Source: a virus (lineage: Duplodnaviria; Caudoviricetes). Taken from it: a DNA stretch of 64,000 nucleotides. The DNA lies in the IMG/VR virus record IMGVR_UViG_3300025909_000005; one strand, 5' to 3'. Positions 2 to 21,693 of the stretch are shown piece after piece (positions within the stretch are counted from its first letter, which is position 1; each line of letters opens with the position of its first letter). The position numbers and the translations under genes are program-made. The notes below the pieces were generated by a model that ran no database searches, was not told the origin of the DNA, and worked only from the letters and a program-made list of their open reading frames with translations.

Positions 2-454
2 GGCGCCGACGCCAAGGTGGCGTACGACGAGAAGGTCATGATGGGCGACGGCCTCTTTGCTGGCTTCATCGACGACGAGTCCCGCTTCCTGATCATGGAA
101 GATGCTGACGCGTTCCTGCAGTCCCGCACGGATGGCAACACGATGATGCACAAGTTCCTGAACGTCTCTGACGGCCTCATCTCCGCGGCAGACAAGAAGC
201 TGGTGTTCTCCACCAACCTCGACAAGGTCACCGACATCGACGAAGCTCTCATGCGTCCGGGTCGCTGCTTCGACGTCATCGAGTTCCGCGAGCTCACGAT
301 CGATGAGGCGAAGGCCGTCATTGCTGAGACCGGTTCTGGCAAGCTGCCTACCGACAAGGACGGCAACGTCAAGAAGAAGATCACCCTTGCCGAGATCTTC
401 TCCGTGCAACCCAGCGAAGGCAAGGTCAAGAAGGCAAGGCTTGGATTCGTATGA
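2..454 (+). CDS. AAA+ ATPase, C-terminal part (5' truncated by window)
   Basis: Frame open from nt 2; Walker B-like LIMEDAD, FSTN sensor, IDEALMRPGRCFD arginine-finger motif. Confidence 0.8.
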   Translation, partial: GADAKVAYDEKVMMGDGLFAGFIDDESRFLIMEDADAFLQSRTDGNTMMHKFLNVSDGLISAADKKLVFSTNLDKVTDIDEALMRPGRCFDVIEFRELTIDEAKAVIAETGSGKLPTDKDGNVKKKITLAEIFSVQPSEGKVKKARLGFV

Positions 455-747
455 AGATCACCACCCGTCCTGAGAGCGCCATTCACGGGAAGGGCGCCTA
501 CACGGTTCGCATGACGTACCACCAGCTCGAGCTCATCGCAGCGCTGGTGAATTCAATCCGTCTTGGGCAACACGGCAGCGTCTACAAGCGCGCGGCCTAC
601 GACCTCCATGGTCTCTTCGATGATGTTTTCGATCAGACTTTTATGGACGACGCCGTTCAAAATGTTGATATAGTGATGTCAGTCGTAGATGACCTCTGCG
701 AACCCATCGAACAATTCTCTGTTAGCGAGTTCGCAATCGAAGTATGA
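451..747 (+). CDS. hypothetical protein
   Basis: ATGA overlap with upstream stop, phage-like codon usage. Confidence 0.7.
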   Translation: MKITTRPESAIHGKGAYTVRMTYHQLELIAALVNSIRLGQHGSVYKRAAYDLHGLFDDVFDQTFMDDAVQNVDIVMSVVDDLCEPIEQFSVSEFAIEV

Positions 748-1292
748 AATCAGTCTACGCAATCGAAGGACTTGACCGTCTCGGCAAGTCGACCCTCATT
801 CGCGGCATCATGGATCGCGGTGGTTTCTACCAGACGATCCACTTCAGCAAGCCTGAAAAGCTGGCTGTCTACGAGCAAGCGAAGGACAAGAGCCCTCTCC
901 AGCTCTACCAGGAGCAGAGCTTCCGCAACTCGATGCTGCTCGCCCGTTCCGGTGCGCGGATCATCTTCGATCGCTGGCACCTCGGCGAAGCTGTCTATGC
1001 CCCACTCTACCGTGGCTATGATGGTGACTACGTCTTCAAGCAGGAGAAGATGTTCGCGATGGACGAAGTCCACTCGATTCGCCTCATCCTCCTCGTTGAA
1101 AACTTCAACTACTCGAAGCACTTCGTCTCTGATGGCGACAGCTTCGATGACACGAAGCGGAAGGCTGAGCAGGAACTTTTCTTCGATGCCATGGCAAAGT
1201 CGATCATTCCGGATCGTCGGATCGTGTGCGTTACGGCTGAGGATGGTGGCTTCCGACGCAAGGAAGACATCCTTGAGGAAGCGCTGTCGTGA
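744..1292 (+). CDS. thymidylate-kinase-like P-loop dNMP kinase
   Basis: IEGLDRLGKST P-loop; IFDRWHLGEAVY (DR motif of TMP kinases). Confidence 0.8.
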   Translation: MKSVYAIEGLDRLGKSTLIRGIMDRGGFYQTIHFSKPEKLAVYEQAKDKSPLQLYQEQSFRNSMLLARSGARIIFDRWHLGEAVYAPLYRGYDGDYVFKQEKMFAMDEVHSIRLILLVENFNYSKHFVSDGDSFDDTKRKAEQELFFDAMAKSIIPDRRIVCVTAEDGGFRRKEDILEEALS

Positions 1293-2354: not shown

Positions 2355-2777
2355 ATGGCATACAATAACCCCACCCCTGTTGCAGTCGCTGTCATGTTTG
2401 TCGGCGATGCCCTTGAAGAGGCTCGTCTTCTTACTGTCTGCCGCAAACTAGCCCCTGTTGGTGGCTGGGCCCTGCCTGGTGGCTTCGTCGATGAAGGTGA
2501 AACTGCTGAGCGGGCGATCCAGCGAGAGGTTCTTGAGGAGTGCGGCATTCGCACGGATATCAGTCTCTGGGTGCCGATTCAGACGGAGATTACGCCGCGC
2601 AATCAGCTCCTTGTCTTCATGGAATACCTCGCACCTCTCGACGAGAATGTGTTGAGCAACTTCAATGAAAATGACGAGGTCTCTGCTCTCGGCACGTTCA
2701 ATGGTAGCACCACGCTATGCTTCCCACTGCATGACAAAGTGGCTCGTGCTGCTGTCAATTCTTTCCAAACCGCATGA
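2355..2777 (+). CDS. NUDIX hydrolase
   Basis: Nudix box GGFVDEGETAERAIQREVLEECG. Confidence 0.9.
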   Translation: MAYNNPTPVAVAVMFVGDALEEARLLTVCRKLAPVGGWALPGGFVDEGETAERAIQREVLEECGIRTDISLWVPIQTEITPRNQLLVFMEYLAPLDENVLSNFNENDEVSALGTFNGSTTLCFPLHDKVARAAVNSFQTA

Positions 2778-3453: not shown

Positions 3454-3927
3454 ATGACTTGTAAGTGTGGGAACTACACTCGTTTCCTGAGCCTCGGCGG
3501 CAAGTGCAGTGACATGTGCTATACGAGGGTGCCTCACCTGAAGTACGAGAATGATGGCTACGCGCCGCCCATTCCAGGTCTGGGCGGCGGCGACTACATC
3601 GAACTTAAAGTCTGCCTCAACTGCGGTCTCTTGCAGGGCTTCAAGGCGCCGTTCTCCGACGAAGACCTGAAGGTCGCGCTCGACATCGAAGAGGACGAGG
3701 AAGAACCAGACGACAACCTCGTAGAGCTCATCGAGGCGATTGCAGCGATCGACATGCTCCGCTGGACTGGTCAAGATGTTGCCATGGTTATCAGGCAGGT
3801 CTACACCGATTTTCATGACAAGCGCCGCATCGACCTGCTAGAACACTTCCTTGGTGCCAACCTCTGGTACAAGCAAGAAATTCTCCAAGAGCTGAATGAT
3901 CGGCTCGACCTACAAAATGGCGAATGA
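3454..3927 (+). CDS. hypothetical protein, Cys-rich N-terminus
   Basis: CKC, CSDMC, CLNC motifs suggest Zn binding. Confidence 0.65.
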   Translation: MTCKCGNYTRFLSLGGKCSDMCYTRVPHLKYENDGYAPPIPGLGGGDYIELKVCLNCGLLQGFKAPFSDEDLKVALDIEEDEEEPDDNLVELIEAIAAIDMLRWTGQDVAMVIRQVYTDFHDKRRIDLLEHFLGANLWYKQEILQELNDRLDLQNGE

Positions 3928-3933
3928 CCCGGG

Positions 3934-3939
3934 CAAACT
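3934..3939 (+). promoter_or_regulatory. sigma70-type -10 box
   Basis: TATAAT in intergenic DNA upstream of an SD and ATG 3977. Confidence 0.5.
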
Positions 3940-3976
3940 CGGGTATAATCGACCATCAACTAAAGAAAGGCGCATC

Positions 3977-4162
3977 ATGCGTAGCGTATCACTTCTCGGC
4001 CTGCTCTGGCTGGTTCTCTGGATTGCCGGCATCATCGGCTGGGTCCTGAACATCATCGACATCTTCCACATGGCGCACCCGCTTGACAGCGGCTTCGGCA
4101 TCCTGCGGATCGTCGGCATCTTCGTCGCACCGCTCGGCTCAATCCTCGGTCTGTTCTTCTGA
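3977..4162 (+). CDS. small membrane protein
   Basis: AAAGG SD; two TM-like segments. Confidence 0.65.
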   Translation: MRSVSLLGLLWLVLWIAGIIGWVLNIIDIFHMAHPLDSGFGILRIVGIFVAPLGSILGLFF

Positions 4163-4163
4163 C

Positions 4164-4841
4164 GTGAAGTTCCCTGACGAGTTCCGGCTGGTCACACCAG
4201 CGAAGCACTACTTCGACGATCCAGCATACCCTGAAGCTGTCGAGTACGTTGCCGCGCGGAACGAACTCTTTGATCGCATGGTGAATGGCACGCTCTACGT
4301 GAAGTTCATCGCTGGTGACCGCAAGGGCTCGATCGCGCGGATGGTGCGTGACACGCGCTATGATAAAGATGGCGATGAATACGTGCAGCCACGTGCCTCA
4401 ATCAAGGCGCGGCGTCGTTACTGGAATGATCCAGATGAGTACGAAATCGACTGGTCATGGTTCAGTGGCATCTGCAAGTGGGACAAGCGCAAGAACAGCT
4501 GTCAACTCACGATGCCTGACGCAGATGCAGTCTTCCTGCCGAATTACAACGGACCGACCATCTACGAGATGTTTGACCGAAAGGCGGCAAAGGAAGAGCT
4601 GCTGAAGAACCCAGACCAGACGGACATCGATGGCAACGTGCTGGCGATCGGCGACAAGGTGCTGTACATCAACGCGCGGTACTACGCGGGCATGGAGCTC
4701 TGTCACGGTACTATCCAGGAGTTCAAGGTCACAGCAGACTCGAAGGGACACTCATTCACCACAGTCGTGAAGAATGACGAAGCTGACGAGGTGTCATCCA
4801 TCTCGTACCCGTGGCAAATGATCTACAAGAAAGCAACATGA
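4164..4841 (+). CDS. hypothetical protein
   Basis: GTG start after upstream stop (MKFPDEFR...); phage-like codon usage. Confidence 0.7.
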   Translation: MKFPDEFRLVTPAKHYFDDPAYPEAVEYVAARNELFDRMVNGTLYVKFIAGDRKGSIARMVRDTRYDKDGDEYVQPRASIKARRRYWNDPDEYEIDWSWFSGICKWDKRKNSCQLTMPDADAVFLPNYNGPTIYEMFDRKAAKEELLKNPDQTDIDGNVLAIGDKVLYINARYYAGMELCHGTIQEFKVTADSKGHSFTTVVKNDEADEVSSISYPWQMIYKKAT

Positions 4842-6040
4842 AAATCCTGATTACGGGCTTCAACAAGAACCAGTGCACGCGAAAGTTCTACCTTCGTCAG
4901 CAGCTGAAGGTCGTGCCTTCGCACTACTCGCTGTTCAACTGCCTCGTCGACATGGGTCACGAGGTCGAGCAGCGCCAGGTAACGCTCGGTGAAGACCTGA
5001 GTGGCTACGACGAGATCATCGTCTTCATCGCGGGGCCACGCCAGCTGGTTGCCACGACGGTCTACGAGGGGCTGTGGGCCATTTCGCAGAAGCCGGGCTG
5101 CATCCTCGCTTTCGACGACTGGCAGGTTCCTGACCTCTTCAAGGGTGTGGCAAAGTGCGACCAGAAGCCTGACGAGCTCTTCGCTCAGTTCATTCTCGAT
5201 GTCAACAAGAAGACCCTCGAGGATGTCAAGCCGTACGAGCAGCAGTTCATGCAGGCGATCAGCGTGATCACCGCGAAGCAGAACCGCATGCTCATCAGCG
5301 CGTTCCAAACCGGCCATGTGTCGGGCGACGTGCATGGACCTGAGCTGCTCTTCGACAAGATCACGTATCCAAGTGATCGTCTCTTCGTCTACAACCCGAA
5401 CCCGTACCACCGCAACCGCATGTGGAACGATGAGGCCCATGAAGGATCAGAAGACCCGACCTGGAAGCCATCGTCGCTGAGCTACACCGCTCGCCCACGT
5501 CCTCCGAAGGAGGAGCGCTTCAACTTCGCCAGTCTCGTGCAGTCGAAGACACAGAAGTGGCTCAAGAAGCAGGGCTACACGGGCAACCCGAAGAACGACG
5601 AGGAAGGTGTGATCCGCGGCAATGGTCGGTACCCTTCTGCAGGTCCCAACACGACACCATTCTGGCCCGTCGACCTCTACGGCTCCAAAGCAGAGACGCA
5701 GAAGCGGCTCACCGAGGACGAAATGGTTGGCGTCATCACCCGCGACTGGGGCTGCCTCATGCCTGGCTACGAACACGCTGGCTCTGGCTGGTGGCGTGCT
5801 CGGCCGCTGCAGTGTGCTGATGCTGACTCGATCCTGATCGGTGAGGATCGTGAGCTGCGCGTCTACTACGGCGACGACTACAAGTACTTCGGTCTTGTCG
5901 CAGCGGACCTGGTTGACATGTCTCCTCAAGACCTTCACGACTGCGCCATTCACCAGAAGATCCAGCTTTACAAGTACCATCCACTCGACAAACTTCGTCA
6001 GGTGAATGAGCTTCAGACGGTTCTGGACGCGCCAAAGTGA
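4838..6040 (+). CDS. GT-B glycosyltransferase resembling T4 DNA beta-glucosyltransferase
   Basis: MKILITG, KVVPSHYSLFNCLVDMGHEVE, DLSGYDEIIVF, ILAFDDWQVP and WWRARPLQCADADSILIG align by eye with the recalled T4 BGT segments MKIAIIN, KTVPSSETIYLFKVISEMGLNVD, DVNDYDRLIVV, YYLFTDIRLP and FITLRVWETMASDAVMLID. Confidence 0.65.
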   Translation: MKILITGFNKNQCTRKFYLRQQLKVVPSHYSLFNCLVDMGHEVEQRQVTLGEDLSGYDEIIVFIAGPRQLVATTVYEGLWAISQKPGCILAFDDWQVPDLFKGVAKCDQKPDELFAQFILDVNKKTLEDVKPYEQQFMQAISVITAKQNRMLISAFQTGHVSGDVHGPELLFDKITYPSDRLFVYNPNPYHRNRMWNDEAHEGSEDPTWKPSSLSYTARPRPPKEERFNFASLVQSKTQKWLKKQGYTGNPKNDEEGVIRGNGRYPSAGPNTTPFWPVDLYGSKAETQKRLTEDEMVGVITRDWGCLMPGYEHAGSGWWRARPLQCADADSILIGEDRELRVYYGDDYKYFGLVAADLVDMSPQDLHDCAIHQKIQLYKYHPLDKLRQVNELQTVLDAPK

Positions 6041-6046
6041 TACAAT
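6038..6046 (+). promoter_or_regulatory. extended -10 promoter, predicted leaderless start
   Basis: TGA-TACAAT-ggtagc-ATG(6053). Confidence 0.6.
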
Positions 6047-6052
6047 GGTAGC

Positions 6053-6424
6053 ATGATCGACCTAAACCTCTACCCTCCGAAAGAAGCCCAAGTGGGCGTC
6101 TATGATGGCCACTCCTACGGCGCCAAAGGCCTCCTCGACATTCACGTCGATGAGGACTCCAATGGTGTCTTCGAGGGCTCCCGCTTCAACGGTGAGATCA
6201 TCCACCTGAAGGATGGCGACGAGGAGGTCGGCACGTTCTGTGTCGGCTACCTGAGTGTCGGCCCTGGCACGTTCTGGGTCGAGGTGCCGGTCGAGGCATG
6301 CAGCATCTACAACGAAGAACAACATGACCCAACCTACCAAGCGAAGCTTTGGTTGGCGTCAGAAGAGGGAAAAGAATGGCTGAAACAACACCCACTACCG
6401 AGGCTTCCAGGGGATCCGAAGTAA
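6053..6424 (+). CDS. hypothetical protein
   Basis: ORF between the GT and the mutase. Confidence 0.65.
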   Translation: MIDLNLYPPKEAQVGVYDGHSYGAKGLLDIHVDEDSNGVFEGSRFNGEIIHLKDGDEEVGTFCVGYLSVGPGTFWVEVPVEACSIYNEEQHDPTYQAKLWLASEEGKEWLKQHPLPRLPGDPK

Positions 6425-7719
6425 GGAAGAAGGCCCTTGTCGTCGGCGCTGGCTTTGCTGGCGCCGTTGTCGCTAGAGAGCTCGCAGATACAGGTGACTG
6501 GGACGTACTCGTCATCGATGCACGCAATCACGTTGCGGGCAACGCCTTTGACTACGTGAACGAGCTGGGCATTCGCGTGCACAAGTACGGTCCCCATCTC
6601 TGGCATGGAAACTCGGACATCGCGCAGGAATGGGCGTCGCGTTTCACAGAGTGGGTTCCGTACAAGCACTACGTGACAGCTCAGCTGCCTGATGGCCAGC
6701 ACGTGCCGCTGCCAATCAACGCGAAGACGATCATGGAGGTCTTCGGCCAAGAGTTTCACAACTTCGCCATGTCGAAGCCTGAGTACTGGGCCTACCAAGA
6801 CGAGGACATTGCTGACGGCATCGGCTACCTTCCGCTCGCCTTCGAGGCGTTCATGGAGCAGCAGCGGGTCAAGTACGAGGCCGTGACAAACTCCCGTGAG
6901 CACGTCGAGTCATCGGTTGGCAAGCGACTGTGCGAGTTGTTCTTCGCGCCGTACACCAAGAAGATGTGGGGCATGGATCTCGCTGACCTTCCAACGTCGG
7001 TAGCGGCCCGCATCCCAACGAAGACCGACTCGGACAAGTACTACTTTCCGAAGGACAAGTACCAGTTCATTCCGAAGGACGGCTACACCGCACTGATCAC
7101 GAAGGCACTTGACCACCCGAACATCACGGTGAAGCTCTGCACGAAGCGCCAAGAGCTCATGCAGTACGCAGGAAGCTATGAGTACCCCTACGTTATTTCG
7201 ACGGGGTGGGACAACGTCAAGTTCGACGCCGTGTTCACGTCAGAGCCCATCGACACGTACTACAACTGCGACCTTGGTGAGCTGCCTTGGCGCTCCATCA
7301 AGTGCCACACGTACAACGTGCCAGTGCCGAAGCTACTCGACGCACCAGTGGTCAACTTCACGCACGACGGTCCACACACGCGTGCTACCGAGTGGAAGCA
7401 GATTCCAGGCCACGATTTTCCTGACTACGCGCGAGATGAATACAGCTCGAGCAAGTACTGGACGACCATCACTGTTGAAGAGCCGTGTGATTACCGCGAC
7501 AACAACATGGAGCGGTACTACCCAGTCAAGACGTCGCATGTCATTGACCCCAATCGTGAACTCTACAAGCAGTACCGTGACCGTGCCAAGAAGGACGGCA
7601 TTCACTTCATCGGCCGCTGTGGTCGCTACGTGTACACGGACATGATGCCCTGCATCAACTCGACCCTCGCTCAGGTCGGTCGTTTCTTGTCGGGTGATAC
7701 AATACCATCAGAGGACTGA
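6376..7719 (+). CDS. glf: UDP-galactopyranose mutase (FAD-dependent)
   Basis: VVGAGFAG FAD motif, AGNAFD, HKYGPH, LFFAPYTKKMWG, RIP, YQFIPKDGYT, WRS, TRATEWKQ, RYYP, GRCGRYVYTDM: the collinear set of Glf motifs. Confidence 0.9.
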   Translation: MAETTPTTEASRGSEVRKKALVVGAGFAGAVVARELADTGDWDVLVIDARNHVAGNAFDYVNELGIRVHKYGPHLWHGNSDIAQEWASRFTEWVPYKHYVTAQLPDGQHVPLPINAKTIMEVFGQEFHNFAMSKPEYWAYQDEDIADGIGYLPLAFEAFMEQQRVKYEAVTNSREHVESSVGKRLCELFFAPYTKKMWGMDLADLPTSVAARIPTKTDSDKYYFPKDKYQFIPKDGYTALITKALDHPNITVKLCTKRQELMQYAGSYEYPYVISTGWDNVKFDAVFTSEPIDTYYNCDLGELPWRSIKCHTYNVPVPKLLDAPVVNFTHDGPHTRATEWKQIPGHDFPDYARDEYSSSKYWTTITVEEPCDYRDNNMERYYPVKTSHVIDPNRELYKQYRDRAKKDGIHFIGRCGRYVYTDMMPCINSTLAQVGRFLSGDTIPSED

Positions 7720-7721
7720 AA

Positions 7722-8228
7722 ATGATGAATGACATTCCCGTTGGCTACGCACTCACGATCACCTCGTGGGAGAACGACGCCGACTGCTACAAGGACGTGA
7801 ACTTCTACGGCCTGGCCTACGAGGACGTGTGGTTCCTCATTGACCTTGCGAAGCTCTTCAAGTCGATGAACAACTACGCAGACCCAGGGTTCGGAGGCGG
7901 AGCTTGGCACTGGAAAAATGGCGAGAAGAACTACTTCAGCGACGTCTACGCTGCGATTGACGAGGTAGTTGAGAAGTACAAGGACATCAACGTCAGCTCA
8001 GAGCTCTACGGCCAGTGGTCGAATCTTCGTGCTGACGCTGAAATCGACCCAGAGTACGGAGACGACGGCTACAATCAAATGATTCAGGAACTCGTGAGCT
8101 ACCCTGAAGACGAGTACTACCGTGGGAATTACATTCGCGTGTTTGACAGCTTCAAGGTGCACTACTACAAGGCTGCTGTCGATGACTGCACAAGTGACTT
8201 CGAGGGCAAGCTGCCAGAGCCGGTATGA
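7722..8228 (+). CDS. hypothetical acidic protein
   Basis: GAGG SD; preceded by TGA-TACAAT (7695-7703). Confidence 0.7.
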   Translation: MMNDIPVGYALTITSWENDADCYKDVNFYGLAYEDVWFLIDLAKLFKSMNNYADPGFGGGAWHWKNGEKNYFSDVYAAIDEVVEKYKDINVSSELYGQWSNLRADAEIDPEYGDDGYNQMIQELVSYPEDEYYRGNYIRVFDSFKVHYYKAAVDDCTSDFEGKLPEPV

Positions 8229-8383
8229 GCAACCTTCTCTTCAACATCCGTTTTGGCTCGTACCACTGGCAGGTCCGCAGGGATCGACCATGGTTCAGCA
8301 TCAGCCATAATCCAGTGCATGATGAACGTGGACCTGGTTTCAAGTGGTTCATGGTCTACTGCTGGTTCGGAAAGCACGTGTGA
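8225..8383 (+). CDS. hypothetical 52-aa Trp-rich protein
   Basis: ATGA overlap at the start, GTGA overlap at the end; absent from ORF track. Confidence 0.55.
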   Translation: MSNLLFNIRFGSYHWQVRRDRPWFSISHNPVHDERGPGFKWFMVYCWFGKHV

Positions 8384-8703
8384 AGAGCGGGCCCAAGTAC
8401 ATTCCAGGGGAATGCAGGTGCAGCAACTGCTGCAACCCTGGCCCAAAATGGGAAGCAGAGACGCGTTGGGCCCGGAACAACCGCAAGAAGAGAATCCTCG
8501 GCATTGAGAAGAGGTACCGTGAACGAACAGCCTACCAACAACGAGCCTTCAGAAAAGAGTACCCTCCCCTCTTCGGAGAGAAGCGAAAGCTCCGCTCGGC
8601 CCCAAAGAAGGTCAAGAGGTTCTATCGCTGGCAGACCAGTCTCTGGCGATATCGACAGGCCTTTGCCGAGTCCAGAAGAAATCGCCTGGCGGAACAGGGT
8701 TGA
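8380..8703 (+). CDS. hypothetical basic protein
   Basis: GTG overlapping upstream TGA; CRCSNCC motif; very Arg/Lys-rich. Confidence 0.5.
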   Translation: MKSGPKYIPGECRCSNCCNPGPKWEAETRWARNNRKKRILGIEKRYRERTAYQQRAFRKEYPPLFGEKRKLRSAPKKVKRFYRWQTSLWRYRQAFAESRRNRLAEQG

Positions 8704-9004
8704 AGAGGATCGCTGGGCACTCTACCAAGAGCGGCCCTACGTTGATGTGGTAGCGCGTGCCAAGCTTCGAGTCCAGCACGAGGAGTGGCTAGGCAAGCCT
8801 GTCCCTGAGTTCACCGTCATTCACACAGAAGAATACACCGCAATCGAGAGTCACTCTCACGACGATGACCTCTGGCTTCGGCTGTCAGGAAATTTTCTGC
8901 CCGACCGCCGGCTCATGATCGCAACAGAAATCTGCGACCAGCTCAATCGCATTGAGCAACAGGACCTAGAAGCAGCCCTAATCAGGAAGAAGAATGCAAT
9001 TTGA
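8504..9004 (+). CDS. hypothetical protein, start uncertain (GTG 8747 or entry by frameshift near 8675)
   Basis: Codon usage looks gene-like only after about 8675. Confidence 0.45.
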   Translation: MRRGTVNEQPTNNEPSEKSTLPSSERSESSARPQRRSRGSIAGRPVSGDIDRPLPSPEEIAWRNRVEEDRWALYQERPYVDVVARAKLRVQHEEWLGKPVPEFTVIHTEEYTAIESHSHDDDLWLRLSGNFLPDRRLMIATEICDQLNRIEQQDLEAALIRKKNAI

Positions 9005-9722
9005 CAAACCCACTCTCATCACCCTCACAGCACCAACTTGTTCAGGCAAGTCGTTCCTGCTCGAGTACCTGACAGATCAGGTCACCCCATACCGTCGCAC
9101 CGTCGTGAAGGGGTTGTGCGAGCGAATCGTCAGCACCACAACTCGAAAGTCACGAGAAGGTGAAGAGGAAGGTAAGGACTACTACTTCATCAGCGAAGAG
9201 GAGTCGATTCGCATGGAGCAGGACGGGCTGTTCGCTGAGCTCATCACGTTCCGAGGCACCCGCTACGGCGTCACAAAGGTCGAGATGGCCAAGAAGATGG
9301 CCAGCGACCGTCCGCCAATCGTGATCCTTGAGCCGCAAGGTCTGAAGATCTACGAGAAGCTCTGTCAGGAGAATGGTTGGGGCATCTACAAGGTGTTCGT
9401 CAGCACGTCTGAGCCAGTGCGAATTCAGCGCCTGAATCACCGAACCTCTCTCGACATGCAGGACGTCATTCGTCGACGCCATGAGTTCCAAGGGGACGAG
9501 CTCTTCGAAGCGATCAAGAAGGTCATCTCAACGCACACGAACCGCATGGAGTCGATCATGGGTGAAGAGCGGCGCTGGCAGGGCATGAGCGTCTGGGATG
9601 CCATTATCACGGGTGAGGACCGCATGAAGGCGATCGCTGACCTCAAGCAGGGCATCGCATGGCGGAACCAGCGCACCAAGAATCCAACTCCTTTCAATGG
9701 GTACTTCAATGACATTGCTTGA
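8994..9722 (+). CDS. guanylate-kinase-like protein
   Basis: APTCSGKS P-loop; IVSTTTRKSREGEEEGKDYYFIS and RYGVT GMK signatures. Confidence 0.8.
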   Translation: MQFDKPTLITLTAPTCSGKSFLLEYLTDQVTPYRRTVVKGLCERIVSTTTRKSREGEEEGKDYYFISEEESIRMEQDGLFAELITFRGTRYGVTKVEMAKKMASDRPPIVILEPQGLKIYEKLCQENGWGIYKVFVSTSEPVRIQRLNHRTSLDMQDVIRRRHEFQGDELFEAIKKVISTHTNRMESIMGEERRWQGMSVWDAIITGEDRMKAIADLKQGIAWRNQRTKNPTPFNGYFNDIA

Positions 9723-10164
9723 AATTGTAGGCGTAGGCGTTAGCGACCTCGCGTGTCTTGGCTTTGGCGTCTGGGTCGGTGTCTACCTTGTAGGTCGCTC
9801 CATTCGGAAGCAGGCCGAGAAGCTGGTTCCTCCAAGCCTGATGGACAAGCTGCCGAGCATGGAGGAAGCGCAGGACCTCTTCAAGGACATCGACTTCAAT
9901 GACATCGCAAGTCGACTTCAGTCAGCACTTCAGCAGCCAACGGTTGTTCTAGGGCCGCAGGTACCAGCAGAGCACCCAGTCAGGCAGTTCGAGGGAGTGA
10001 TCGGTTCACGAGGGCCGAACATGATCGTGGTCGCACCGAATGGTGCTGAGTTCGCCATCACGGACGGCACTAAGGGCATGAAACCGGAGCAGCTCATATC
10101 GGGAACGAAGGTGGAAGCCCACGCAAGCGGGAACGTCCTCAAGTACGTCTTCCCGAAGAAGTAA
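9709..10164 (+). CDS. hypothetical protein with N-terminal TM
   Basis: Hydrophobic N-terminus; followed by terminator. Confidence 0.6.
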   Translation: MTLLEIVGVGVSDLACLGFGVWVGVYLVGRSIRKQAEKLVPPSLMDKLPSMEEAQDLFKDIDFNDIASRLQSALQQPTVVLGPQVPAEHPVRQFEGVIGSRGPNMIVVAPNGAEFAITDGTKGMKPEQLISGTKVEAHASGNVLKYVFPKK

Positions 10165-10168
10165 CAAG

Positions 10169-10195
10169 AAGCCCGATTCGTCGGGCTTTGTTTTG
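10169..10195 (+). terminator. rho-independent terminator
   Basis: AAGCCCGA-TTCG-TCGGGCTT then TGTTTT. Confidence 0.85.
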
Positions 10196-10205
10196 CCCGG
10201 GCCTG

Positions 10206-10234
10206 TGTACATCGAACGCTATCTGACTTACAAT
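10206..10234 (+). promoter_or_regulatory. early sigma70-type promoter
   Basis: TGTACA-N17-TACAAT directly after terminator. Confidence 0.65.
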
Positions 10235-10296
10235 TGCACTGTAAACCGCTATCTAGCCACTAATGCTATTACCCGCGCGCTGCGCATGGAGAATGT

Positions 10297-10542
10297 ATGC
10301 CCACTCTGACGAGTTCCAGTGTCACGTACGAATTCAGCCTCGAGGAACTGACGAAGCTGATCGCAGCCGACCTGATGGTTCCCATTGACGCGATCAAGAT
10401 CGACTTCGTGCAGAAGGACTTCGCTGGCTACGGCGATCGTGGTTCTGACTTCCGCACCGTGGGTTTGAAGGTAACGGTCGACAACACGAAGATCAAGAGC
10501 GAGCCGGCTTTCGCAGAACGCGGCGGCTGGAACGACAGATGA
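10297..10542 (+). CDS. hypothetical protein
   Basis: GGAG SD. Confidence 0.7.
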   Translation: MPTLTSSSVTYEFSLEELTKLIAADLMVPIDAIKIDFVQKDFAGYGDRGSDFRTVGLKVTVDNTKIKSEPAFAERGGWNDR

Positions 10543-10694
10543 AAGACTTTGGCAAGGCGTTCCTCGCGCTCATCGTGATCTGCATCGTTTTCGGATCACT
10601 TCTCCTCTTCGTCAAGCCGATCAAGGACCCATGTCCGACGGCCTACTACGTCCATGGCGGTTCACCGCAGACGTGCCCTCATTCCACCAGGTGA
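10539..10694 (+). CDS. small membrane protein
   Basis: ATGA overlap, one TM, 51 aa; absent from ORF track. Confidence 0.55.
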   Translation: MKDFGKAFLALIVICIVFGSLLLFVKPIKDPCPTAYYVHGGSPQTCPHSTR

Positions 10695-10699
10695 AAAAC

Positions 10700-11245
10700 A
10701 TGCGCCTCTACTCCTTCGTCGCCGGCCTCTACCTCTCGCAGCTGCAGCGCGGCCTGCAGACGGCTCACGTTCTCGGTGAGCTGAACAGCAAGTACGAGGA
10801 CCACGGTGCCAACCTGGCACGCATGGAAAAGCAGCAGCTCCTGCGTGAGTGGCAGCGCAAGCACAAGACAATCATCATCGCCAGTGCCATGACGGCCGGT
10901 GAAGTGCGCCGCCTACACGAAAAGCTGCTCACGATGACCGCCGACTGGCAGCCGTCTCCGATGCAGATGCCTGTCGCCATGTTCTGCGAGGACGTAGAAA
11001 GCGCAGACGGTATGGCCACTGCAGTTGGCATTGTCGTTCCTCAGCACTACTACGACGCGAAGTTCGTCAGCGGCAAGCTTGATCCTGCCGGGCTGGATTC
11101 CTACGTCTACACCGACGAGGACGGCAAGGAGGAGTACTACGTCAACTACCCGTACGAAGATGGCATGGGTATCATGAAGTGCGTCTCCCAGCTCCAGTTC
11201 GAGTTTGTAAAATTGATCAAGAGCTATCCGCTCGCCCAGAGCTGA
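10700..11245 (+). CDS. peptidyl-tRNA hydrolase PTH2-like protein
   Basis: QRGLQTAH, WQRKHKTIII, FCED and ATAVGIVVP match the PTH2 pattern (Q-x-x-H, K-x-V/I, D, T-x-V-G). Confidence 0.55.
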   Translation: MRLYSFVAGLYLSQLQRGLQTAHVLGELNSKYEDHGANLARMEKQQLLREWQRKHKTIIIASAMTAGEVRRLHEKLLTMTADWQPSPMQMPVAMFCEDVESADGMATAVGIVVPQHYYDAKFVSGKLDPAGLDSYVYTDEDGKEEYYVNYPYEDGMGIMKCVSQLQFEFVKLIKSYPLAQS

Positions 11246-11260
11246 GATTGTCGTGTCCAA

Positions 11261-11295
11261 TAAATACTCCATACTGCAGATGAGCAGTATGGAGT
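11261..11295 (+). promoter_or_regulatory. late promoter TAAATA overlapping a 12-bp hairpin that sequesters an SD
   Basis: TAAATA 11261-66; ACTCCATACTGC 11266-77 pairs perfectly with GCAGTATGGAGT 11284-95, which contains GGAG. Confidence 0.75.
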
Positions 11296-11299
11296 TGAC

Positions 11300-11485
11300 A
11301 TGACTGGAAGAGACCCTAACGACAAGGCGCCTCTGATCGCTGCCATTGTGGTGGCGGTCCTTGCATTCGCCGCGTTCCTCTTCATTGTGCACGAGGGCAG
11401 AGCTCTCTTGCCCCAGATTTCCGTAGCCCACGCTCATCTGAAGATTCAGACGCTTCACCATCCTGGTGCTAGCGCGCCAATTTAA
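11300..11485 (+). CDS. small single-TM protein
   Basis: GGAG-N5-ATG; hydrophobic LIAAIVVAVLAFAAFLFIV. Confidence 0.6.
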   Translation: MTGRDPNDKAPLIAAIVVAVLAFAAFLFIVHEGRALLPQISVAHAHLKIQTLHHPGASAPI

Positions 11486-11495
11486 GGAGAAAGCA

Positions 11496-11774
11496 ATGGA
11501 CAATTACGACCCAAATGACCCAGTAGTCCGTGAAGAGCGCACTGTTGTCACGCCAGCACCTGCGCCAATCGCACCAACCCCAGCTGCACCGACCGTCGTC
11601 ACGACTGGTTCTGGTGGCATCATCGCTGCCATCATCGTTTTCTTGGTAGTCGTGATCGGTGGTTGGATGTGGTACACGAACACCACGCCTACGCAGGCTG
11701 TTCACAAGGTAGAAACTTCGACCTCGAATGTCTACCACGACGCAACTGGCTCTGCAAAGCCAGCAAGCAACTAA
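11496..11774 (+). CDS. single-TM protein with Pro/Thr-rich N-terminus
   Basis: AAGGAG SD; central TM. Confidence 0.75.
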   Translation: MDNYDPNDPVVREERTVVTPAPAPIAPTPAAPTVVTTGSGGIIAAIIVFLVVVIGGWMWYTNTTPTQAVHKVETSTSNVYHDATGSAKPASN

Positions 11775-11787
11775 GGAGTTCTCACAC

Positions 11788-12081
11788 ATGCGTTCCCTCG
11801 TTCTCACTGCACTCGCTGCAGCATCTCTCGCTCTCGGCGGTTGCGCCGGCATGAGCAACCACGACCAGCGCGTCCTCTCGGGCGCAGCAATCGGTGGTGT
11901 CGTCGGTCACGCCGTCCTCGGCGGTACTGGTGGTGCCGTCGCCGGTGCTGTAGTTGGTGGTGTCGTCGGCGACTCTGTTGACCGCGACGCACGTGATCGC
12001 GAACAGCGCGACCGTGACTACCGCTACAACGACTGCCGTCGTTACAACAGCGAAGAGTTCTGCCGCCGCAACGTGCGCTAA
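11788..12081 (+). CDS. glycine-zipper lipoprotein
   Basis: AAGGAG SD; lipobox LALGG-C; GAAIGGVVG and GAVVGGVVG zipper motifs. Confidence 0.8.
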   Translation: MRSLVLTALAAASLALGGCAGMSNHDQRVLSGAAIGGVVGHAVLGGTGGAVAGAVVGGVVGDSVDRDARDREQRDRDYRYNDCRRYNSEEFCRRNVR

Positions 12082-12100
12082 GCAGAACCTGCTCCAAACG

Positions 12101-12125
12101 AAGCCCGCCCCGTGCGGGCTTTTTC
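12101..12125 (+). terminator. rho-independent terminator
   Basis: AAGCCCGC-CCCGT-GCGGGCTT followed by T run. Confidence 0.85.
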
Positions 12126-12128
12126 GTA

Positions 12129-12156
12129 TGTACTTCTGGGGTGAGTGTGATAAAAT
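12129..12156 (+). promoter_or_regulatory. early promoter, predicted leaderless start
   Basis: TGTACT-N16-TAAAAT-caccct-ATG(12163). Confidence 0.65.
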
Positions 12157-12162
12157 CACCCT

Positions 12163-12387
12163 ATGGTAAGCGACAAATACCGCCTTCGTCGGGCGAGGAG
12201 AGGCTTTGCCTCACGACGGCTCGAGCTCCTCGGCAAGCTGTGGATGGCAGAGAACATGCTCACGCATGCGATCATCGGTCACATGGCTGGCGATCCTAAG
12301 GGAGAAGCAAAGAAGGCCGAGGCGCGAACAGAGATCGCAACGATCGAGTCCGAGCTCAACACCATCTGCCATCCCGAAAAGCCATAA
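12163..12387 (+). CDS. hypothetical protein
   Basis: ORF directly after promoter. Confidence 0.6.
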   Translation: MVSDKYRLRRARRGFASRRLELLGKLWMAENMLTHAIIGHMAGDPKGEAKKAEARTEIATIESELNTICHPEKP

Positions 12388-12438
12388 GTAGCTGTTGCGG
12401 CGCGAGTCGCAATTCAGTTTACACGCTACATCACAGGA

Positions 12439-12447
12439 TGATATAAT
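12439..12447 (+). promoter_or_regulatory. extended -10 promoter, predicted leaderless start of topoisomerase
   Basis: TGA-TATAAT-aggctc-ATG(12454), no SD. Confidence 0.7.
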
Positions 12448-12453
12448 AGGCTC

Positions 12454-14472: not shown

Positions 14473-14759
14473 TGCCTACGAAATGGTATGATGGACACTC
14501 GTACCCGACCACCGTGTCGGACTTGCCAAAGGACGGGCCGTTCAACGCGGCTCTGTACGAGGAGTGGTACTCAAATGACGATGGCTACGGGGGTCAATCC
14601 ACGGGCTATGCGCTGAAGCTGATCGTCTTCGAAACGCCGAAGGCGATGGAGGACTGGGCCCTTCAGCAGGTCAAGTCCGACAGCCGCAAGAAGTTCCAGC
14701 TGGTTCGCATCAACCCAATTCACCTCGAGGTGAAGACGGTACTGACGATCAAGGAGTGA
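14472..14759 (+). CDS. hypothetical protein
   Basis: TGATG coupling to topoisomerase gene. Confidence 0.7.
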   Translation: MPTKWYDGHSYPTTVSDLPKDGPFNAALYEEWYSNDDGYGGQSTGYALKLIVFETPKAMEDWALQQVKSDSRKKFQLVRINPIHLEVKTVLTIKE

Positions 14760-14760
14760 G

Positions 14761-14958
14761 ATGAGCAAGCCACCGAAGCACCTCACGTGGCGCAACGTCG
14801 TCGACGCCGACAAGCAGTACTGCGGCCATCCCGACACAGCAGCCTACAAGGCATTTCACCTGGGATACCAGTACTTCGTGTGGGATGGTGACGTCTACAA
14901 GGTGGACGAAAACGCCGAAGCAGTTCCGACGGACTGGACCGTCGGTGACGTCAGTTAG
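14761..14958 (+). CDS. hypothetical protein
   Basis: GGAG SD. Confidence 0.65.
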   Translation: MSKPPKHLTWRNVVDADKQYCGHPDTAAYKAFHLGYQYFVWDGDVYKVDENAEAVPTDWTVGDVS

Positions 14959-15706: not shown

Positions 15707-15731
15707 AGATATGTCCTTGCTGGAGATCGTC

Positions 15732-15737
15732 TATTTA
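15732..15737 (-). promoter_or_regulatory. late promoter TAAATA
   Basis: TATTTA on + strand, upstream of the minus-strand gene. Confidence 0.6.
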
Positions 15738-15756
15738 CGGGCTCTCAGCATCACAG

Positions 15757-15785: not shown

Positions 15786-15791
15786 CGTTCT

Positions 15792-20193: not shown

Positions 20194-20197
20194 ACAC

Positions 20198-20721: not shown

Positions 20722-21693
20722 ATGATGATTCGTGAATTCATGGCACCTGTCGTTCCCAAGGTAGTCGACCCCGACTGCCATGAAGAAGGTCCTCGCAACT
20801 GGGAGTTCCAGTACCTTGACCTGATCGGTGACATCCTTATGAATGGTGACGACCGAGTCGATCGCACTGGTGTCGGCACGCGAGCCCTCTTCGGCCGCAC
20901 GCTTGACATTAAGCTCAAGAACGGCTTTCCAATTCCGTGGACAAAGCGCCTGGCCCTCCGTCCCGTCGTGTCTGAACTCCTCTGGTTCCTCGAAGGTTCT
21001 GGTGACGAGCGCCGTCTGGCAGAGATTCTGCACGGTACACGTGACGCAGAGAAGAAGACCATTTGGACCGCGAACGCCCAAGCCGACTACTGGAAGCCGA
21101 AGGCCAAGTTCGATGGTGACCTTGGTCGAGTCTACGGCGTGCAATGGCGCGATTGGCAGACATACACGAAGGATGATCTGAGCAATGAGTGGGTTCCTGC
21201 TATCGCTGTCGATCAGGTCGCAGAGCTCATCAAGAAGCTCAAGACGAATCCTACCGACCGTCGCATGATCATCTCTGCCTGGAACGTCGGTGAAATCGGG
21301 CAGATGGCCCTGCCGCCCTGCCACATGATGGCGCAGTTCTTCGTTGCGAACAACGAGCTCTCCTGTCAGATGTACCAGCGCTCGGTCGACTCGATGCTCG
21401 GCCTGCCCTTCAACATTGCCTCATACGCTCTCCTGACCCACATGCTGGCTCAGGTCTGTGGTCTCGGTGTTGATCGCCTGATCATGAACCTCGGTGACGT
21501 GCACATCTACAGCAATCACTTCATCGGTGCGATGGAGCAGCTCGAACGTGGCTACCAAATCCCCGAGGTCGAACCTACTCCTGTCGTGCTGAAGATGGAC
21601 GACGTGAAGAACCTCGAGGACTTCACGATGGATTCGTTCAACTTCCAGTTCTACGATCCGCTTCCTGCAATCAAAATGGACATGGCTGTATGA
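20722..21693 (+). CDS. thyA: thymidylate synthase
   Basis: ELLWFLEG, GRVYGVQWR, RRMIISAWN, LPPCH, YQRSVD, LPFNIASY, GDVHIY. Confidence 0.95.
   Translation: MMIREFMAPVVPKVVDPDCHEEGPRNWEFQYLDLIGDILMNGDDRVDRTGVGTRALFGRTLDIKLKNGFPIPWTKRLALRPVVSELLWFLEGSGDERRLAEILHGTRDAEKKTIWTANAQADYWKPKAKFDGDLGRVYGVQWRDWQTYTKDDLSNEWVPAIAVDQVAELIKKLKTNPTDRRMIISAWNVGEIGQMALPPCHMMAQFFVANNELSCQMYQRSVDSMLGLPFNIASYALLTHMLAQVCGLGVDRLIMNLGDVHIYSNHFIGAMEQLERGYQIPEVEPTPVVLKMDDVKNLEDFTMDSFNFQFYDPLPAIKMDMAV

What the first reader, a model, noticed from the sequence alone, without database searches (positions are those of the whole stretch)
4838..7719. Candidate phage DNA furanosylation system: T4-BGT-like glycosyltransferase next to UDP-galactopyranose mutase
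Seen: a 400-aa GT-B protein whose N- and C-terminal motifs track T4 DNA beta-glucosyltransferase, separated by one short ORF from an intact Glf with all key motifs. Established: BGT transfers glucose from UDP-Glc to 5-hydroxymethylcytosine in DNA; Glf converts UDP-galactopyranose to UDP-galactofuranose and can accept UDP-L-arabinopyranose; some T4-like phages carry arabinosylated cytosines. Inference: the phage makes a UDP-furanose donor and attaches Galf or Araf to a hydroxylated base, shielding DNA from restriction and CRISPR. I know of no characterised galactofuranosylated DNA base. The acceptor-base synthase is not in this window.
Basis: partly seen in the sequence, partly recalled or inferred. 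Interest (0 to 1): 0.88.

Follow-up and report, generated by a model that had tools for sequence, protein, structure and literature searches.

The report
Predicted galactofuranosyl-hydroxymethylcytosine DNA modification module
A jumbo phage carries a T4-beta-glucosyltransferase-like enzyme next to a sugar-ring-contracting enzyme (Glf), a pair that across many phages always travels with an enzyme that makes hydroxymethylated cytosine, so it most likely coats the phage DNA with a five-membered-ring galactose; this chemistry has not been shown for hydroxymethylcytosine, although a similar idea is already in print for another phage base.

Summary

GT and Glf are adjacent in 31 of 36 informative related loci, down to 27% GT identity. 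These include the cultured Aeromonas phage 25 group and Erwinia phage FBB1. All 32 informative metagenomic loci carry a thymidylate-synthase paralog with the T4 gp42 signature (Cys...MRSND...ND) near the GT. The window's own genome has one (P0253) about 4.1 kb before the window start. In phage C48C1 a TET/JBP dioxygenase takes that place, in a TET-GT-Glf operon.

The predicted acceptor is therefore 5-hydroxymethylcytosine, not 5-hydroxycytosine (validated synthases read MRSQN). The predicted donor is UDP-galactofuranose.

Not new in kind: beta-GT-like phage GT-B enzymes on 5hmC are published (bioRxiv 2023.12.21.572611), and phage Glf feeding DNA galactosylation is proposed for Rhizobium phage RL38J1 (NAR 2026). 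Galf on 5hmC with this unnamed GT family (723 homologs) appears undescribed. The chemistry is untested. Another first-stage note of this scan flagged the same stretch.

The parts
2..454 (+). 3' part of a 466-aa AAA+ ATPase gene that starts before the window. It is a conserved neighbour upstream of the kinase in the window's clade.
   Evidence: The open 5' frame matches 370-aa ORFs at 55-69% identity in L003-L005, L009 and L011. The gene map of a contig with the identical GT calls it PF00004 AAA, 466 aa.
744..1292 (+). Thymidylate-kinase-like P-loop nucleotide kinase (182 aa). It is the candidate kinase for the modified dCMP.
   Evidence: Weak PF02223 hit (E 0.002). It is conserved 0.6-3.5 kb upstream of the GT in all 9 close relatives at 51-62% identity. 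BLASTP against RB69p045, the kinase of the RB69 arabinosyl-5hoC cluster, gives E 4e-5, and the two proteins have the same length.
2355..2777 (+). NUDIX hydrolase. A role in the nucleotide or sugar-nucleotide pool is possible. It is not conserved in relatives.
   Evidence: PF00293 E 5e-14. No match in related loci.
4083..4841 (+). Unknown protein directly upstream of the GT, with stop and start overlapping.
   Evidence: PHROG 24641, unknown function, E 1e-67. Weak DUF7205. Not conserved next to the GT in relatives.
4838..6040 (+). GT-B glycosyltransferase of an unnamed phage family. It is the predicted DNA 5hmC furanosyltransferase.
   Evidence: It has 723 homologs at E<=1e-5, all annotated hypothetical and none with a Pfam domain. 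PHROG 14998, unknown function. Invariant residues include D93, D94 and W95 after strand 4 of the N-domain, and H313, G315, S316, G317, W318, W319, R320, R322 and Q325 in the C-domain.
6053..6424 (+). 123-aa lineage-specific ORF between GT and Glf, function unknown. It overlaps the Glf start by 49 nt.
   Evidence: Gene-like codon-position GC. Called as a gene on an identical contig. No Pfam or PHROG hit. No homolog in 38 related loci.
6376..7719 (+). UDP-galactopyranose mutase (Glf, 447 aa), the predicted supplier of UDP-galactofuranose.
   Evidence: PF03275 157.5 bits, PF13450. PDB UGMs at E 2.5e-60 to 7e-32, with substrate-binding residues conserved. SD GAGGG before ATG 6376.
7722..8228 (+). 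Unknown 168-aa protein directly downstream of Glf.
   Evidence: PHROG 2290, unknown function, E 8e-22. No Pfam hit.
8994..9722 (+). Guanylate-kinase-like nucleotide kinase (242 aa), conserved just downstream of Glf in the clade.
   Evidence: PF00625 E 8.5e-15. PHROG 1815 guanylate kinase. PDB guanylate kinases at E 1e-11. Present 0-1.2 kb after Glf in 8 of the 9 relatives at 41-51% identity; L008's contig ends at the GT.
20722..21693 (+). Canonical thymidylate synthase. It is not the acceptor-base synthase and is listed only to exclude it.
   Evidence: PF00303 295 bits. The motifs ALPPCH, QRSVD and FNIAS correspond to E. coli L143, C146, D169 and N177, all retained.

Best explanation
The GT and Glf are the last two steps of a cytosine hypermodification pathway of a roughly 377-kb jumbo phage.

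(1) A gp42-type thymidylate-synthase paralog (P0253) is encoded about 4.1 kb before the window start. It converts dCMP to 5-hydroxymethyl-dCMP.

(2) Phage nucleotide kinases (744-1292, possibly also 8994-9722) and host NDP kinase raise it to the triphosphate. The phage family-B polymerase then incorporates it.

(3) Glf (6376-7719) contracts host UDP-galactopyranose to UDP-alpha-D-galactofuranose.

(4) The BGT-like GT-B enzyme (4838-6040) flips out 5hmC in duplex DNA and transfers galactofuranose to the hydroxymethyl oxygen. If it inverts like BGT, the product is 5-(beta-D-galactofuranosyloxymethyl)cytosine.

The bulky and unusual sugar would block restriction endonucleases and Cas nucleases. 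It would also evade type IV enzymes tuned to glucosyl-hmC.

Shown here: the gene identities, the GT-B fold, intact active-site motifs in Glf and in the TS paralog, and the conserved linkage of the three functions.

Inferred: DNA as the acceptor, the identity and ring form of the sugar, the anomeric configuration, the extent of substitution and the defence-evasion role.
For: - Module conservation. Glf lies directly beside the GT in 31 of 38 loci, or 31 of 36 where the flank is present, across GT identities from 77% down to 27%.
- Independent re-pairing. In L006 and L007 the GT is 71-72% identical to the window's, but Glf is only 41% identical and about 100 aa shorter, and the TS paralog belongs to another subtype.
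- Link to base synthesis, metagenomic loci. All 32 IMG/VR loci with upstream sequence carry a TS paralog within about 1-7.6 kb of the GT start. All 32 read MRSND...(N/G)D with a catalytic Cys. That is the T4 gp42 signature.
- Link to base synthesis, own genome. A contig with the identical GT has a 336-aa PF00303 gene 10 kb upstream. P0253 (336 aa) sits on a 376,619-nt contig, the same as P0001. It reads DVPCTL...NMRSNDIIRGFTND. It is 29% identical to T4 gp42 (E 6e-20) and 21% identical to RB69 gp48 (E 2e-8).
- Cultured phages. Aeromonas phage 25 and Erwinia FBB1 carry gp42-type genes elsewhere in their genomes.
- A second route to 5hmC. Phage C48C1 has no TS homolog. It encodes a TET/JBP oxygenase (PF12851, E 3e-17) whose gene overlaps the GT start, followed by Glf.
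- Other members of the GT family sit in DNA-modification clusters. The Morganella Rgz1 homolog lies inside an RB69-like arabinosyl cluster with an MRSQN synthase. L033-L038 have the order TS, dCMP deaminase, GT8, GT, C5-methylase-like, and L033 adds an NDP-sugar epimerase.
- Fold. T4 BGT is the top PDB match, at the same Foldseek E range as the phage GT-B enzymes shown experimentally to glycosylate 5hmC DNA (bioRxiv 10.1101/2023.12.21.572611).
- Precedent for a phage Glf feeding DNA glycosylation: PMC13326640.
Against: - No chemistry exists for this phage or for any phage with this module.
- The GT has no Pfam or PDB sequence match. Its structural lead for BGT over SenB, PimA and other GT-B enzymes is under 1 Z unit. 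The AlphaFold Swiss-Prot search returned only generic lipid, polysaccharide and small-molecule GT-B enzymes.
- I could not superpose the catalytic Asp or examine a DNA-binding groove.
- The MRSND signature separates hydroxymethylase-type enzymes from 5hoC synthases, but it does not by itself exclude a dCMP methylase.
- The TS paralog is 10 kb from the GT in this genome, with a helicase and two AAA ATPases between them. In T4-like phages it sits far from the module.
- Many related loci are near-duplicates, so the number of independent lineages is about seven, not 38.
- I could not read the DNA that encodes P0253. Its placement rests on matching protein length, contig length and gene map. An exact look-up of P0253 returned nothing.
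- Glf enzymes can act on other UDP-sugars.
Confidence: 0.6

Rival explanations
1. DNA 5hmC is glycosylated by this GT, but the sugar is not galactofuranose. Two versions are possible. Glf may act as a UDP-arabinopyranose or UDP-GalNAc mutase, giving an Araf or GalNAcf adduct. Or the GT may use an ordinary pyranose donor, while Glf serves a second transferase or drains host UDP-Gal.
For: Distant GT homologs (24% identity) sit in arabinofuranosyl clusters, so the family may accept pentofuranoses. Some bacterial Glf enzymes accept other UDP-sugars (established knowledge; not tested here). No residue-level specificity test was possible.
Against: All galactose- and diphosphate-binding residues of characterised UGMs are conserved. 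Phages that arabinosylate encode a separate Ara5P isomerase, kinase and uridylyltransferase route and no Glf. That route is absent around this GT. The tight and repeatedly re-formed GT-Glf adjacency argues that the Glf product is the GT's donor.
Confidence: 0.15
2. The GT-Glf pair does not touch DNA. Instead it adds galactofuranose to a host envelope glycan (LPS or capsule, for superinfection exclusion), to a virion protein or to a small molecule. Its linkage to nucleotide-metabolism genes would then only reflect early-gene clustering.
For: Galf is a classical cell-envelope sugar. An earlier phage genome paper read a phage Glf as a host cell-wall gene (PMC6630229). Structural neighbours include PimA, WaaG, BshA and SenB, which act on lipids or small molecules. 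The window also carries envelope-related genes such as a PagL-like protein.
Against: The GT has no membrane segment in the model. The link to a hydroxymethyl- or hydroxy-pyrimidine synthase holds in every lineage checked, including an overlapping TET-GT-Glf operon in a phage with no TS homolog. In the Glf-less clade the GT's neighbours are a dCMP deaminase and a C5-methylase-like gene. Comparable beta-GT-like phage GT-B enzymes were shown to act on 5hmC DNA.
Confidence: 0.12
3. The acceptor is 5-hydroxycytosine, with an ether-linked sugar as in RB69, DLP3 and RL38J1, rather than 5-hydroxymethylcytosine.
For: The closest published phage-Glf case (RL38J1) uses 5hoC. The GT family also occurs in a 5hoC-type cluster.
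Against: The diagnostic D169N change is absent. P0253 and all 32 linked paralogs read MRSND like T4 gp42, while the validated RB69 gp48 and RL38J1 gp216, and Rgz1 gp33, read MRSQN. P0253 is closer to gp42 than to RB69 gp48. The TET/JBP variant in C48C1 makes hydroxymethyl, not hydroxy, groups (family knowledge).
Confidence: 0.05

Closest known systems
T4 hmC glucosylation (gp42 dCMP hydroxymethylase + beta-glucosyltransferase, PDB 1J39/1QKJ)
   Same: Pre-replicative 5hm-dCMP synthesis by a TS paralog with the same Cys...MRSND...ND signature. A post-replicative GT-B transferase whose nearest solved structure is BGT. Weak N-terminal sequence similarity (hhalign E 2.7e-4).
   Different: No PF09198 or PDB sequence match, and 12-13% identity in structural alignments. 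The donor is tailored by a phage Glf instead of taken as host UDP-glucose. The GT is 400 aa against 351 aa and carries a low-confidence insertion at residues 195-222. The host phage is a jumbo phage distantly related to Xanthomonas and Ralstonia jumbo phages.
Rhizobium phage RL38J1 / Pootjesviridae galactosyl-(glucosyl)n-5-hydroxycytosine pathway (PMC13326640, 2026)
   Same: A phage-encoded Glf is proposed to make UDP-Galf for DNA cytosine glycosylation. The pathway also has a TS paralog, a thymidylate-kinase-like kinase and a GT-B transferase.
   Different: The base there is 5hoC (MRSQN synthase), here 5hmC-type (MRSND). The RL38J1 GTs are not detectable homologs of this GT (no RL38J1 hit). 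In RL38J1 Glf is about 60 kb from the GT and synthase genes, while here it is the GT's immediate neighbour. The window Glf is only 29% identical to RL38J1 Glf.
Phage 5mYOX/ThyS-associated GT-B DNA glycosyltransferases (bioRxiv 10.1101/2023.12.21.572611)
   Same: GT-B enzymes with a beta-GT-like predicted fold at Foldseek E 1e-5 to 1e-7. They sit beside TET-type or TS-type base synthases and beside sugar-nucleotide enzymes that define the glycan. They were shown to modify 5hmC in DNA.
   Different: The sugars shown there are heptose, Kdo and others. The paper's main text mentions neither mutase nor furanose. Whether this GT family is among the 25,000 contigs they mined could not be checked.
RB69/DLP3 arabinofuranosyl-5hoC clusters (PMC13326640; PMC6024577)
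   Same: A furanose sugar on C5-substituted cytosine. A homologous kinase (RB69p045 against window 744-1292, E 4e-5). A distant member of this GT family sits in the equivalent cluster of Morganella phage Rgz1.
   Different: The donor there is made de novo from ribulose-5-P by an isomerase, phosphatase, kinase and uridylyltransferase, not by a mutase. RB69p046:47 shows no similarity to this GT (hhalign probability below 1%). The base is 5hoC.

Membership tests
T4 DNA beta-glucosyltransferase family (Pfam PF09198 / CAZy GT63) | Sequence match to the family profile | tested here: not met
   No Pfam family at E<=0.1. No PDB chain at E<=10 with the single sequence or with a 24-sequence profile. hhalign against T4 BGT aligns only residues 1-67, E 2.7e-4, probability 42%.
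T4 DNA beta-glucosyltransferase family (Pfam PF09198 / CAZy GT63) | GT-B fold most similar to BGT | tested here: met
T4 DNA beta-glucosyltransferase family (Pfam PF09198 / CAZy GT63) | Catalytic base equivalent to Asp100 and the UDP-binding Arg/Glu pair of the C-domain | tested here: inconclusive
   Invariant D93 and D94 follow strand 89-93 of the N-domain, and invariant R320, R322 and Q325 lie in the C-domain. No residue-level superposition was available. The BLASTP C-terminal alignment has E 0.2.
T4 DNA beta-glucosyltransferase family (Pfam PF09198 / CAZy GT63) | Transfers sugar to 5hmC in duplex DNA | not testable with these tools
   Needs an enzyme assay or virion DNA mass spectrometry.
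UDP-galactopyranose mutase (Glf/UGM, PF03275) | Profile match above the curated cut-off, with an N-terminal FAD-binding GxGxxG | tested here: met
   PF03275 157.5 bits (cut-off 26.3). PF13450 53.7 bits. VVGAGFAG motif.
UDP-galactopyranose mutase (Glf/UGM, PF03275) | Substrate-binding residues (Klebsiella UGM Y155, W160, R174, Y185, R280, Y314, Y349) | tested here: met
   All are conserved in the phmmer alignment to 1WAM and 3HDQ. Residue numbers were counted from the printed alignment.
UDP-galactopyranose mutase (Glf/UGM, PF03275) | Interconverts UDP-Galp and UDP-Galf | not testable with these tools
   Needs an enzyme assay. Specificity against UDP-Arap or UDP-GalNAc is unknown.
gp42-type dCMP hydroxymethylase (TS paralog) as acceptor-base synthase | Catalytic Cys, Asp at the E. 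coli N177 position (cytosine specificity), an acidic residue at the L143 position, and D169 retained | tested here: met
   P0253 reads NKDVPCTL...NMRSNDIIRGFTND. T4 gp42 reads SDFMCTN...NMRSNDVVFGFRND. The gene lies outside the window; its placement is inferred.
5-hydroxy-dCMP synthase pathway (RB69/DLP3/RL38J1 type) | D169N signature (MRSQN) in the TS paralog | tested here: not met
   P0253 and 32 of 32 linked paralogs read MRSND. RB69 gp48, RL38J1 gp216 and Rgz1 gp33 read MRSQN.
Phage ThyS/5mYOX-linked GT-B DNA hypermodification gene clusters | A GT-B gene clustered with a TS paralog or TET/JBP and with a sugar-nucleotide enzyme | tested here: met
   In this genome the order is TS paralog, then 10 kb, then GT, a 123-aa ORF, Glf.
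Phage ThyS/5mYOX-linked GT-B DNA hypermodification gene clusters | Glycosylated base detected in DNA | not testable with these tools
   No chemistry is available for any phage with this module in the searched literature.

The most novel reading that the evidence does not exclude
This unnamed GT-B family (723 homologs, PHROG 14998) may be a dedicated DNA furanosyltransferase family. With Glf it would make 5-(galactofuranosyloxymethyl)cytosine, a DNA base not yet described. That base would be widespread in environmental jumbo phages and present in cultured Aeromonas (25, Aes508, phiAS4) and Erwinia (FBB1) T4-like phages. Distant members would add arabinofuranose in RB69-like clusters.
Probability: 0.45. 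Interest if true: 0.75.

Novelty: new variant of a known kind. Interest (0 to 1): 0.62.

Why it matters
If the prediction holds, it adds a new sugar and ring form to the known hydroxymethylcytosine modifications. It also gives a name and a function to a large family of "hypothetical" phage proteins.

It would explain a gene pair that phage genome papers have read as host cell-wall metabolism. The glycan on phage DNA decides which restriction, type IV and CRISPR defences work, so it matters for host-range prediction and phage engineering. A Galf-specific DNA transferase could also become a tool for labelling 5hmC.

The idea can be tested at once on phages already in culture. It does not open a new principle: glycosylated C5-substituted cytosines, beta-GT-like phage transferases and a phage Glf feeding DNA galactosylation are all in the recent literature.

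Tried and rejected
1. Finding the window's own contig. Megablast of 4000-9000 against phage records found no match. An exact 42-mer found nothing in viral, metagenome or genome contigs. No whole genome is held for the window. Exact-protein look-ups of the kinase and of P0253 returned nothing. The look-up of the GT gave a gene map but no DNA. I therefore never read the upstream DNA. The TS paralog sequence came indirectly, through cluster membership.

2. Window ThyA (20722-21693) as the base synthase. Rejected: it has canonical TS motifs.

3. Homology of the GT to the RB69 arabinosyltransferase p046:47. hhalign probability was below 1%. Homology to the 348-aa ORF after the GT in Aeromonas phage 25 was likewise below 1%.

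4. Profile search of the GT family against PDB sequences found nothing at E<=10.

5. AlphaFold Swiss-Prot fold search returned only generic GT-B enzymes, with no viral entries listed. It did not help to discriminate.

6. The small ORF 6053-6424 as a conserved pathway component. Rejected: no homolog in any related locus.

7. Promoter and terminator scan of 3800-10400 gave nothing above the shuffled expectation inside the module. The genes look co-transcribed.

8. Literature searches for galactofuranose on hmC, or for Glf in Aeromonas T4-like phages, found no paper. Iyer et al. 2013 (PMC3763556) is not held, so I could not check whether it mentions this pair.

9. No complex prediction was run. 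The tools offered cannot dock DNA.

Full report
**What is in the sequence**

The stretch 4838-7719 holds three co-directional ORFs with no promoter- or terminator-like site above chance between them.

- ORF 4838-6040 encodes 400 aa. Its ATG is the true start, because 23 homologs align from MKILITG onward.
- ORF 6053-6424 encodes 123 aa. It has gene-like codon-position GC but no homolog in any related locus.
- The third ORF is best started at ATG 6376, behind a GAGGG Shine-Dalgarno, giving 447 aa.

The third protein is an unambiguous UDP-galactopyranose mutase. PF03275 scores 157.5 bits against a cut-off of 26.3, and there is an NAD_binding_8 FAD domain. Solved UGMs match at E 2.5e-60 to 7e-32. 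The alignment keeps GxGxxG and the equivalents of Klebsiella UGM Y155, W160, R174, Y185, R280, Y314 and Y349.

**The transferase**

The 400-aa protein has no Pfam family at E<=0.1, only PHROG 14998 "unknown function". It has no PDB sequence match, even with a 24-sequence profile.

An AlphaFold2 model built on that alignment is confident (pLDDT 83.2, pTM 0.83). It shows two Rossmann-like halves, that is, a GT-B fold.

- Foldseek against the PDB puts T4 DNA beta-glucosyltransferase first, second and third (1J39, 1QKJ, 1NZD; E 1.9e-6 to 4.2e-6).

BGT is therefore the nominal best match but does not stand apart. Profile-to-sequence comparison with T4 BGT, taken from the T4 record, aligns only the N-terminal 67 residues (34% identity, E 2.7e-4, probability 42%). 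The C-terminal resemblance is not significant.

The protein works like a BGT-type GT-B, but it cannot be filed in the BGT family.

**The pair is a conserved module**

tblastn of the GT against 50,697 phage records finds 34 records. In the 19 Aeromonas T4-like records, the two Stenotrophomonas phage IME13 records, Erwinia phage FBB1 and phage C48C1, the Glf hit lies within about 50-150 nt of the GT hit. In Aeromonas phage 25 the pair is annotated "not conserved in 44RR2.8t" and sits as an insertion between motA and asiA.

A scan of IMG/VR gave 36 further loci with GT identity of 34-77%. Counting all 38 loci, Glf is adjacent in 31. Two of the remaining seven (L008, L036) end right after the GT, so the count is 31 of 36 informative loci.

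Several loci are near-duplicates. The independent evidence is better counted as about seven lineages.

The pairing has also been re-formed. L006 and L007 keep a GT 71-72% identical to the window's, but their Glf is only 41% identical and about 100 aa shorter, and their TS paralog is of another subtype. That is what one expects if selection acts on the pair as a functional unit.

**Link to a modified base**

The window's own TS homolog (20722-21693) is a canonical thymidylate synthase. ALPPCH, QRSVD and FNIAS retain E. coli L143, C146, D169 and N177.

Five large relatives each have two TS homologs: one canonical and one divergent, the latter 4-7 kb upstream of the GT. Across the IMG/VR loci, 32 of 36 have such a paralog in the fetched flank. 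The four without it begin less than 410 nt before the GT. All 32 read MRSND...G..(N/G)D after a catalytic Cys.

T4 gp42, read from the T4 record, is SDFMCTN...NMRSNDVVFGFRND. The experimentally validated 5-hydroxy-dCMP synthases RB69 gp48 and RL38J1 gp216 read MRSQN. This is the D169N signature defined in PMC13326640.

For the window's own genome, a contig carrying the identical GT has a 336-aa PF00303 gene 10 kb upstream. A second AAA ATPase, a 154-aa ORF, a helicase, the AAA ATPase whose 3' end opens the window, and the kinase lie in between. The GT protein is on record on a 376,619-nt contig. So is a 336-aa TS paralog, P0253.

P0253 reads NKDVPCTL...NMRSNDIIRGFTND. It is closer to T4 gp42 (29% identity, E 6e-20) than to RB69 gp48 (21%, E 2e-8). 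This agrees with an earlier first-stage note that read the same motif 4,142 nt before the window. I could not read that DNA myself.

**Independent routes to the same chemistry**

Phage C48C1 has no TS homolog anywhere in its 156 kb. The gene whose stop overlaps the GT start is a TET/JBP 2OG-Fe(II) oxygenase (PF12851, E 3.3e-17), giving a TET-GT-Glf operon. Phage TET enzymes make 5hmC on DNA (PMC8256090, listed).

More distant GT homologs lie in other DNA-modification clusters.

- The 24%-identical homolog in Morganella phage Rgz1 sits between an arabinose-5-phosphate isomerase and an NDP-sugar synthesis gene, in an RB69-like cluster whose TS paralog reads MRSQN.
- In the Glf-less clade L033-L038 the order is hm-type TS, dCMP deaminase, GT8, this GT, then a C5-methylase-like gene. 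L033 adds an NAD-dependent sugar epimerase.

In every setting the GT is embedded in cytosine-modification genes, and its variable neighbour is a sugar-nucleotide enzyme. Glf is best read as the donor-tailoring step.

**Mechanism proposed**

1. dCMP is hydroxymethylated by P0253.
2. The thymidylate-kinase-like protein (744-1292) phosphorylates it, possibly together with the guanylate-kinase-like protein (8994-9722). The first is conserved upstream of the GT in all nine close relatives and is weakly homologous to the kinase of the RB69 cluster (E 4e-5). The second is conserved just after Glf.
3. The modified nucleotide is incorporated at replication.
4. Glf converts host UDP-Galp to UDP-Galf.
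5. The GT transfers Galf to the 5hmC hydroxyl in DNA.

Steps 1 and 4 rest on intact family motifs. Steps 2, 3 and 5, the ring form, the anomer and the degree of substitution are inferences.

Galf is preferred over Araf for two reasons. The galactose-binding residues of UGM are intact. Phages known to arabinosylate use a dedicated UDP-Araf pathway that is absent here.

**Comparison with the literature**

- PMC13326640 (NAR 2026) shows arabinofuranosyl-5hoC in RB69 and DLP3. It recalls that RL38J1 DNA carries galactose-first hexosides on 5hoC, and it proposes that the RL38J1 Glf makes UDP-Galf.
- bioRxiv 10.1101/2023.12.21.572611 shows that phage GT-B enzymes with beta-GT-like predicted folds (Foldseek E 1e-5 to 1e-7), encoded beside TET-type or TS-type enzymes, install diverse sugars on 5hmC. 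Its main text mentions neither mutase nor furanose.
- Searches for galactofuranose with hydroxymethylcytosine or hypermodification, and for Glf with hydroxymethylase or with Aeromonas T4-like phages, returned only the NAR paper or nothing.
- An older genome paper read a phage Glf as a host cell-wall function.

The system is thus a new variant of a known kind. It is a 5hmC pathway with a Glf-tailored donor and a GT family of 723 unnamed homologs.

**Caveats**

- There is no chemistry for any phage with this module.
- The structural preference for BGT is within the tie margin.
- There is no residue-level check of the catalytic Asp or of a DNA groove.
- The motif does not exclude a dCMP methylase.
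- The loci are partly redundant.
- The placement of P0253 is indirect.

I put 0.6 on the full statement. DNA glycosylation alone would be about 0.8.

Noticed in passing
window 19609-23220: A circularly permuted YpsA/SLOG protein (PF12694, E 7e-31) is directly followed by an RNA 2'-phosphotransferase Tpt1/KptA (PF01885, E 2e-50). A macro-domain protein lies 2 kb further on (PF01661). Together they look like an NAD/ADP-ribose or RNA-repair module. An RNA ligase (PF09511) is at 37615-38805.
   Followed up: no
window 56559-57086: A nucleoside 2-deoxyribosyltransferase-like protein (PF15891, E 2e-25). Members of this superfamily include hydroxymethyl-CMP N-glycosidases that partner MilA-type hydroxymethylases, and MilA is the best PDB match of the relatives' TS paralog. 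A role in pool editing for the modified cytosine is conceivable.
   Followed up: no
window 45711-46202: A PagL-like lipid A 3-O-deacylase / outer-membrane beta-barrel protein (PF09411, E 1e-20) encoded by the phage. This points to a Gram-negative host and possibly to envelope remodelling.
   Followed up: no
window 27286-32823 and 32823-35391: An 1845-aa ORF with no Pfam match, followed by a concanavalin/laminin-G-like protein (PF13385) and a DUF4376 protein. These are probably tail-fibre or host-recognition genes.
   Followed up: no
window 12454-17177, 18345-19310, 39475-41622, 46798-48258, 61102-63945: Split type II topoisomerase (large and medium subunits), a DnaJ-like chaperone, ClpP protease, PhoH, a SprT-like metalloprotease domain protein and a family-B DNA polymerase. 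The topoisomerase is at most 47% identical to those of Xanthomonas phages X1, BUDD and XacN1 and Ralstonia RsoM2USA, so the phage is a distant, uncultured jumbo relative.
   Followed up: partly
L002 (Phage C48C1, OQ984149.1) 8586-12033: A TET/JBP oxygenase, this GT family and Glf form an overlapping three-gene operon in a phage that has no thymidylate-synthase homolog. All three genes are annotated as hypothetical in the record.
   Followed up: partly
L061 (Morganella phage Rgz1, OK499989.1) 6372-13703: An RB69-like arabinosylation cluster that contains a distant member of this GT family (gp40) next to the arabinose-5-phosphate isomerase. This suggests the family may be specialised for furanosyl donors.
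   Followed up: partly
L006, L007, L008 (IMG/VR relatives): The GT clade is the same (69-72% identity), but the TS paralog is of the T4-like DFMCTN subtype, and in L006 and L007 the Glf is a short 343-aa form only 41% identical (L008's contig ends at the GT). This is evidence of modular exchange of the partner genes around a conserved GT.
   Followed up: partly
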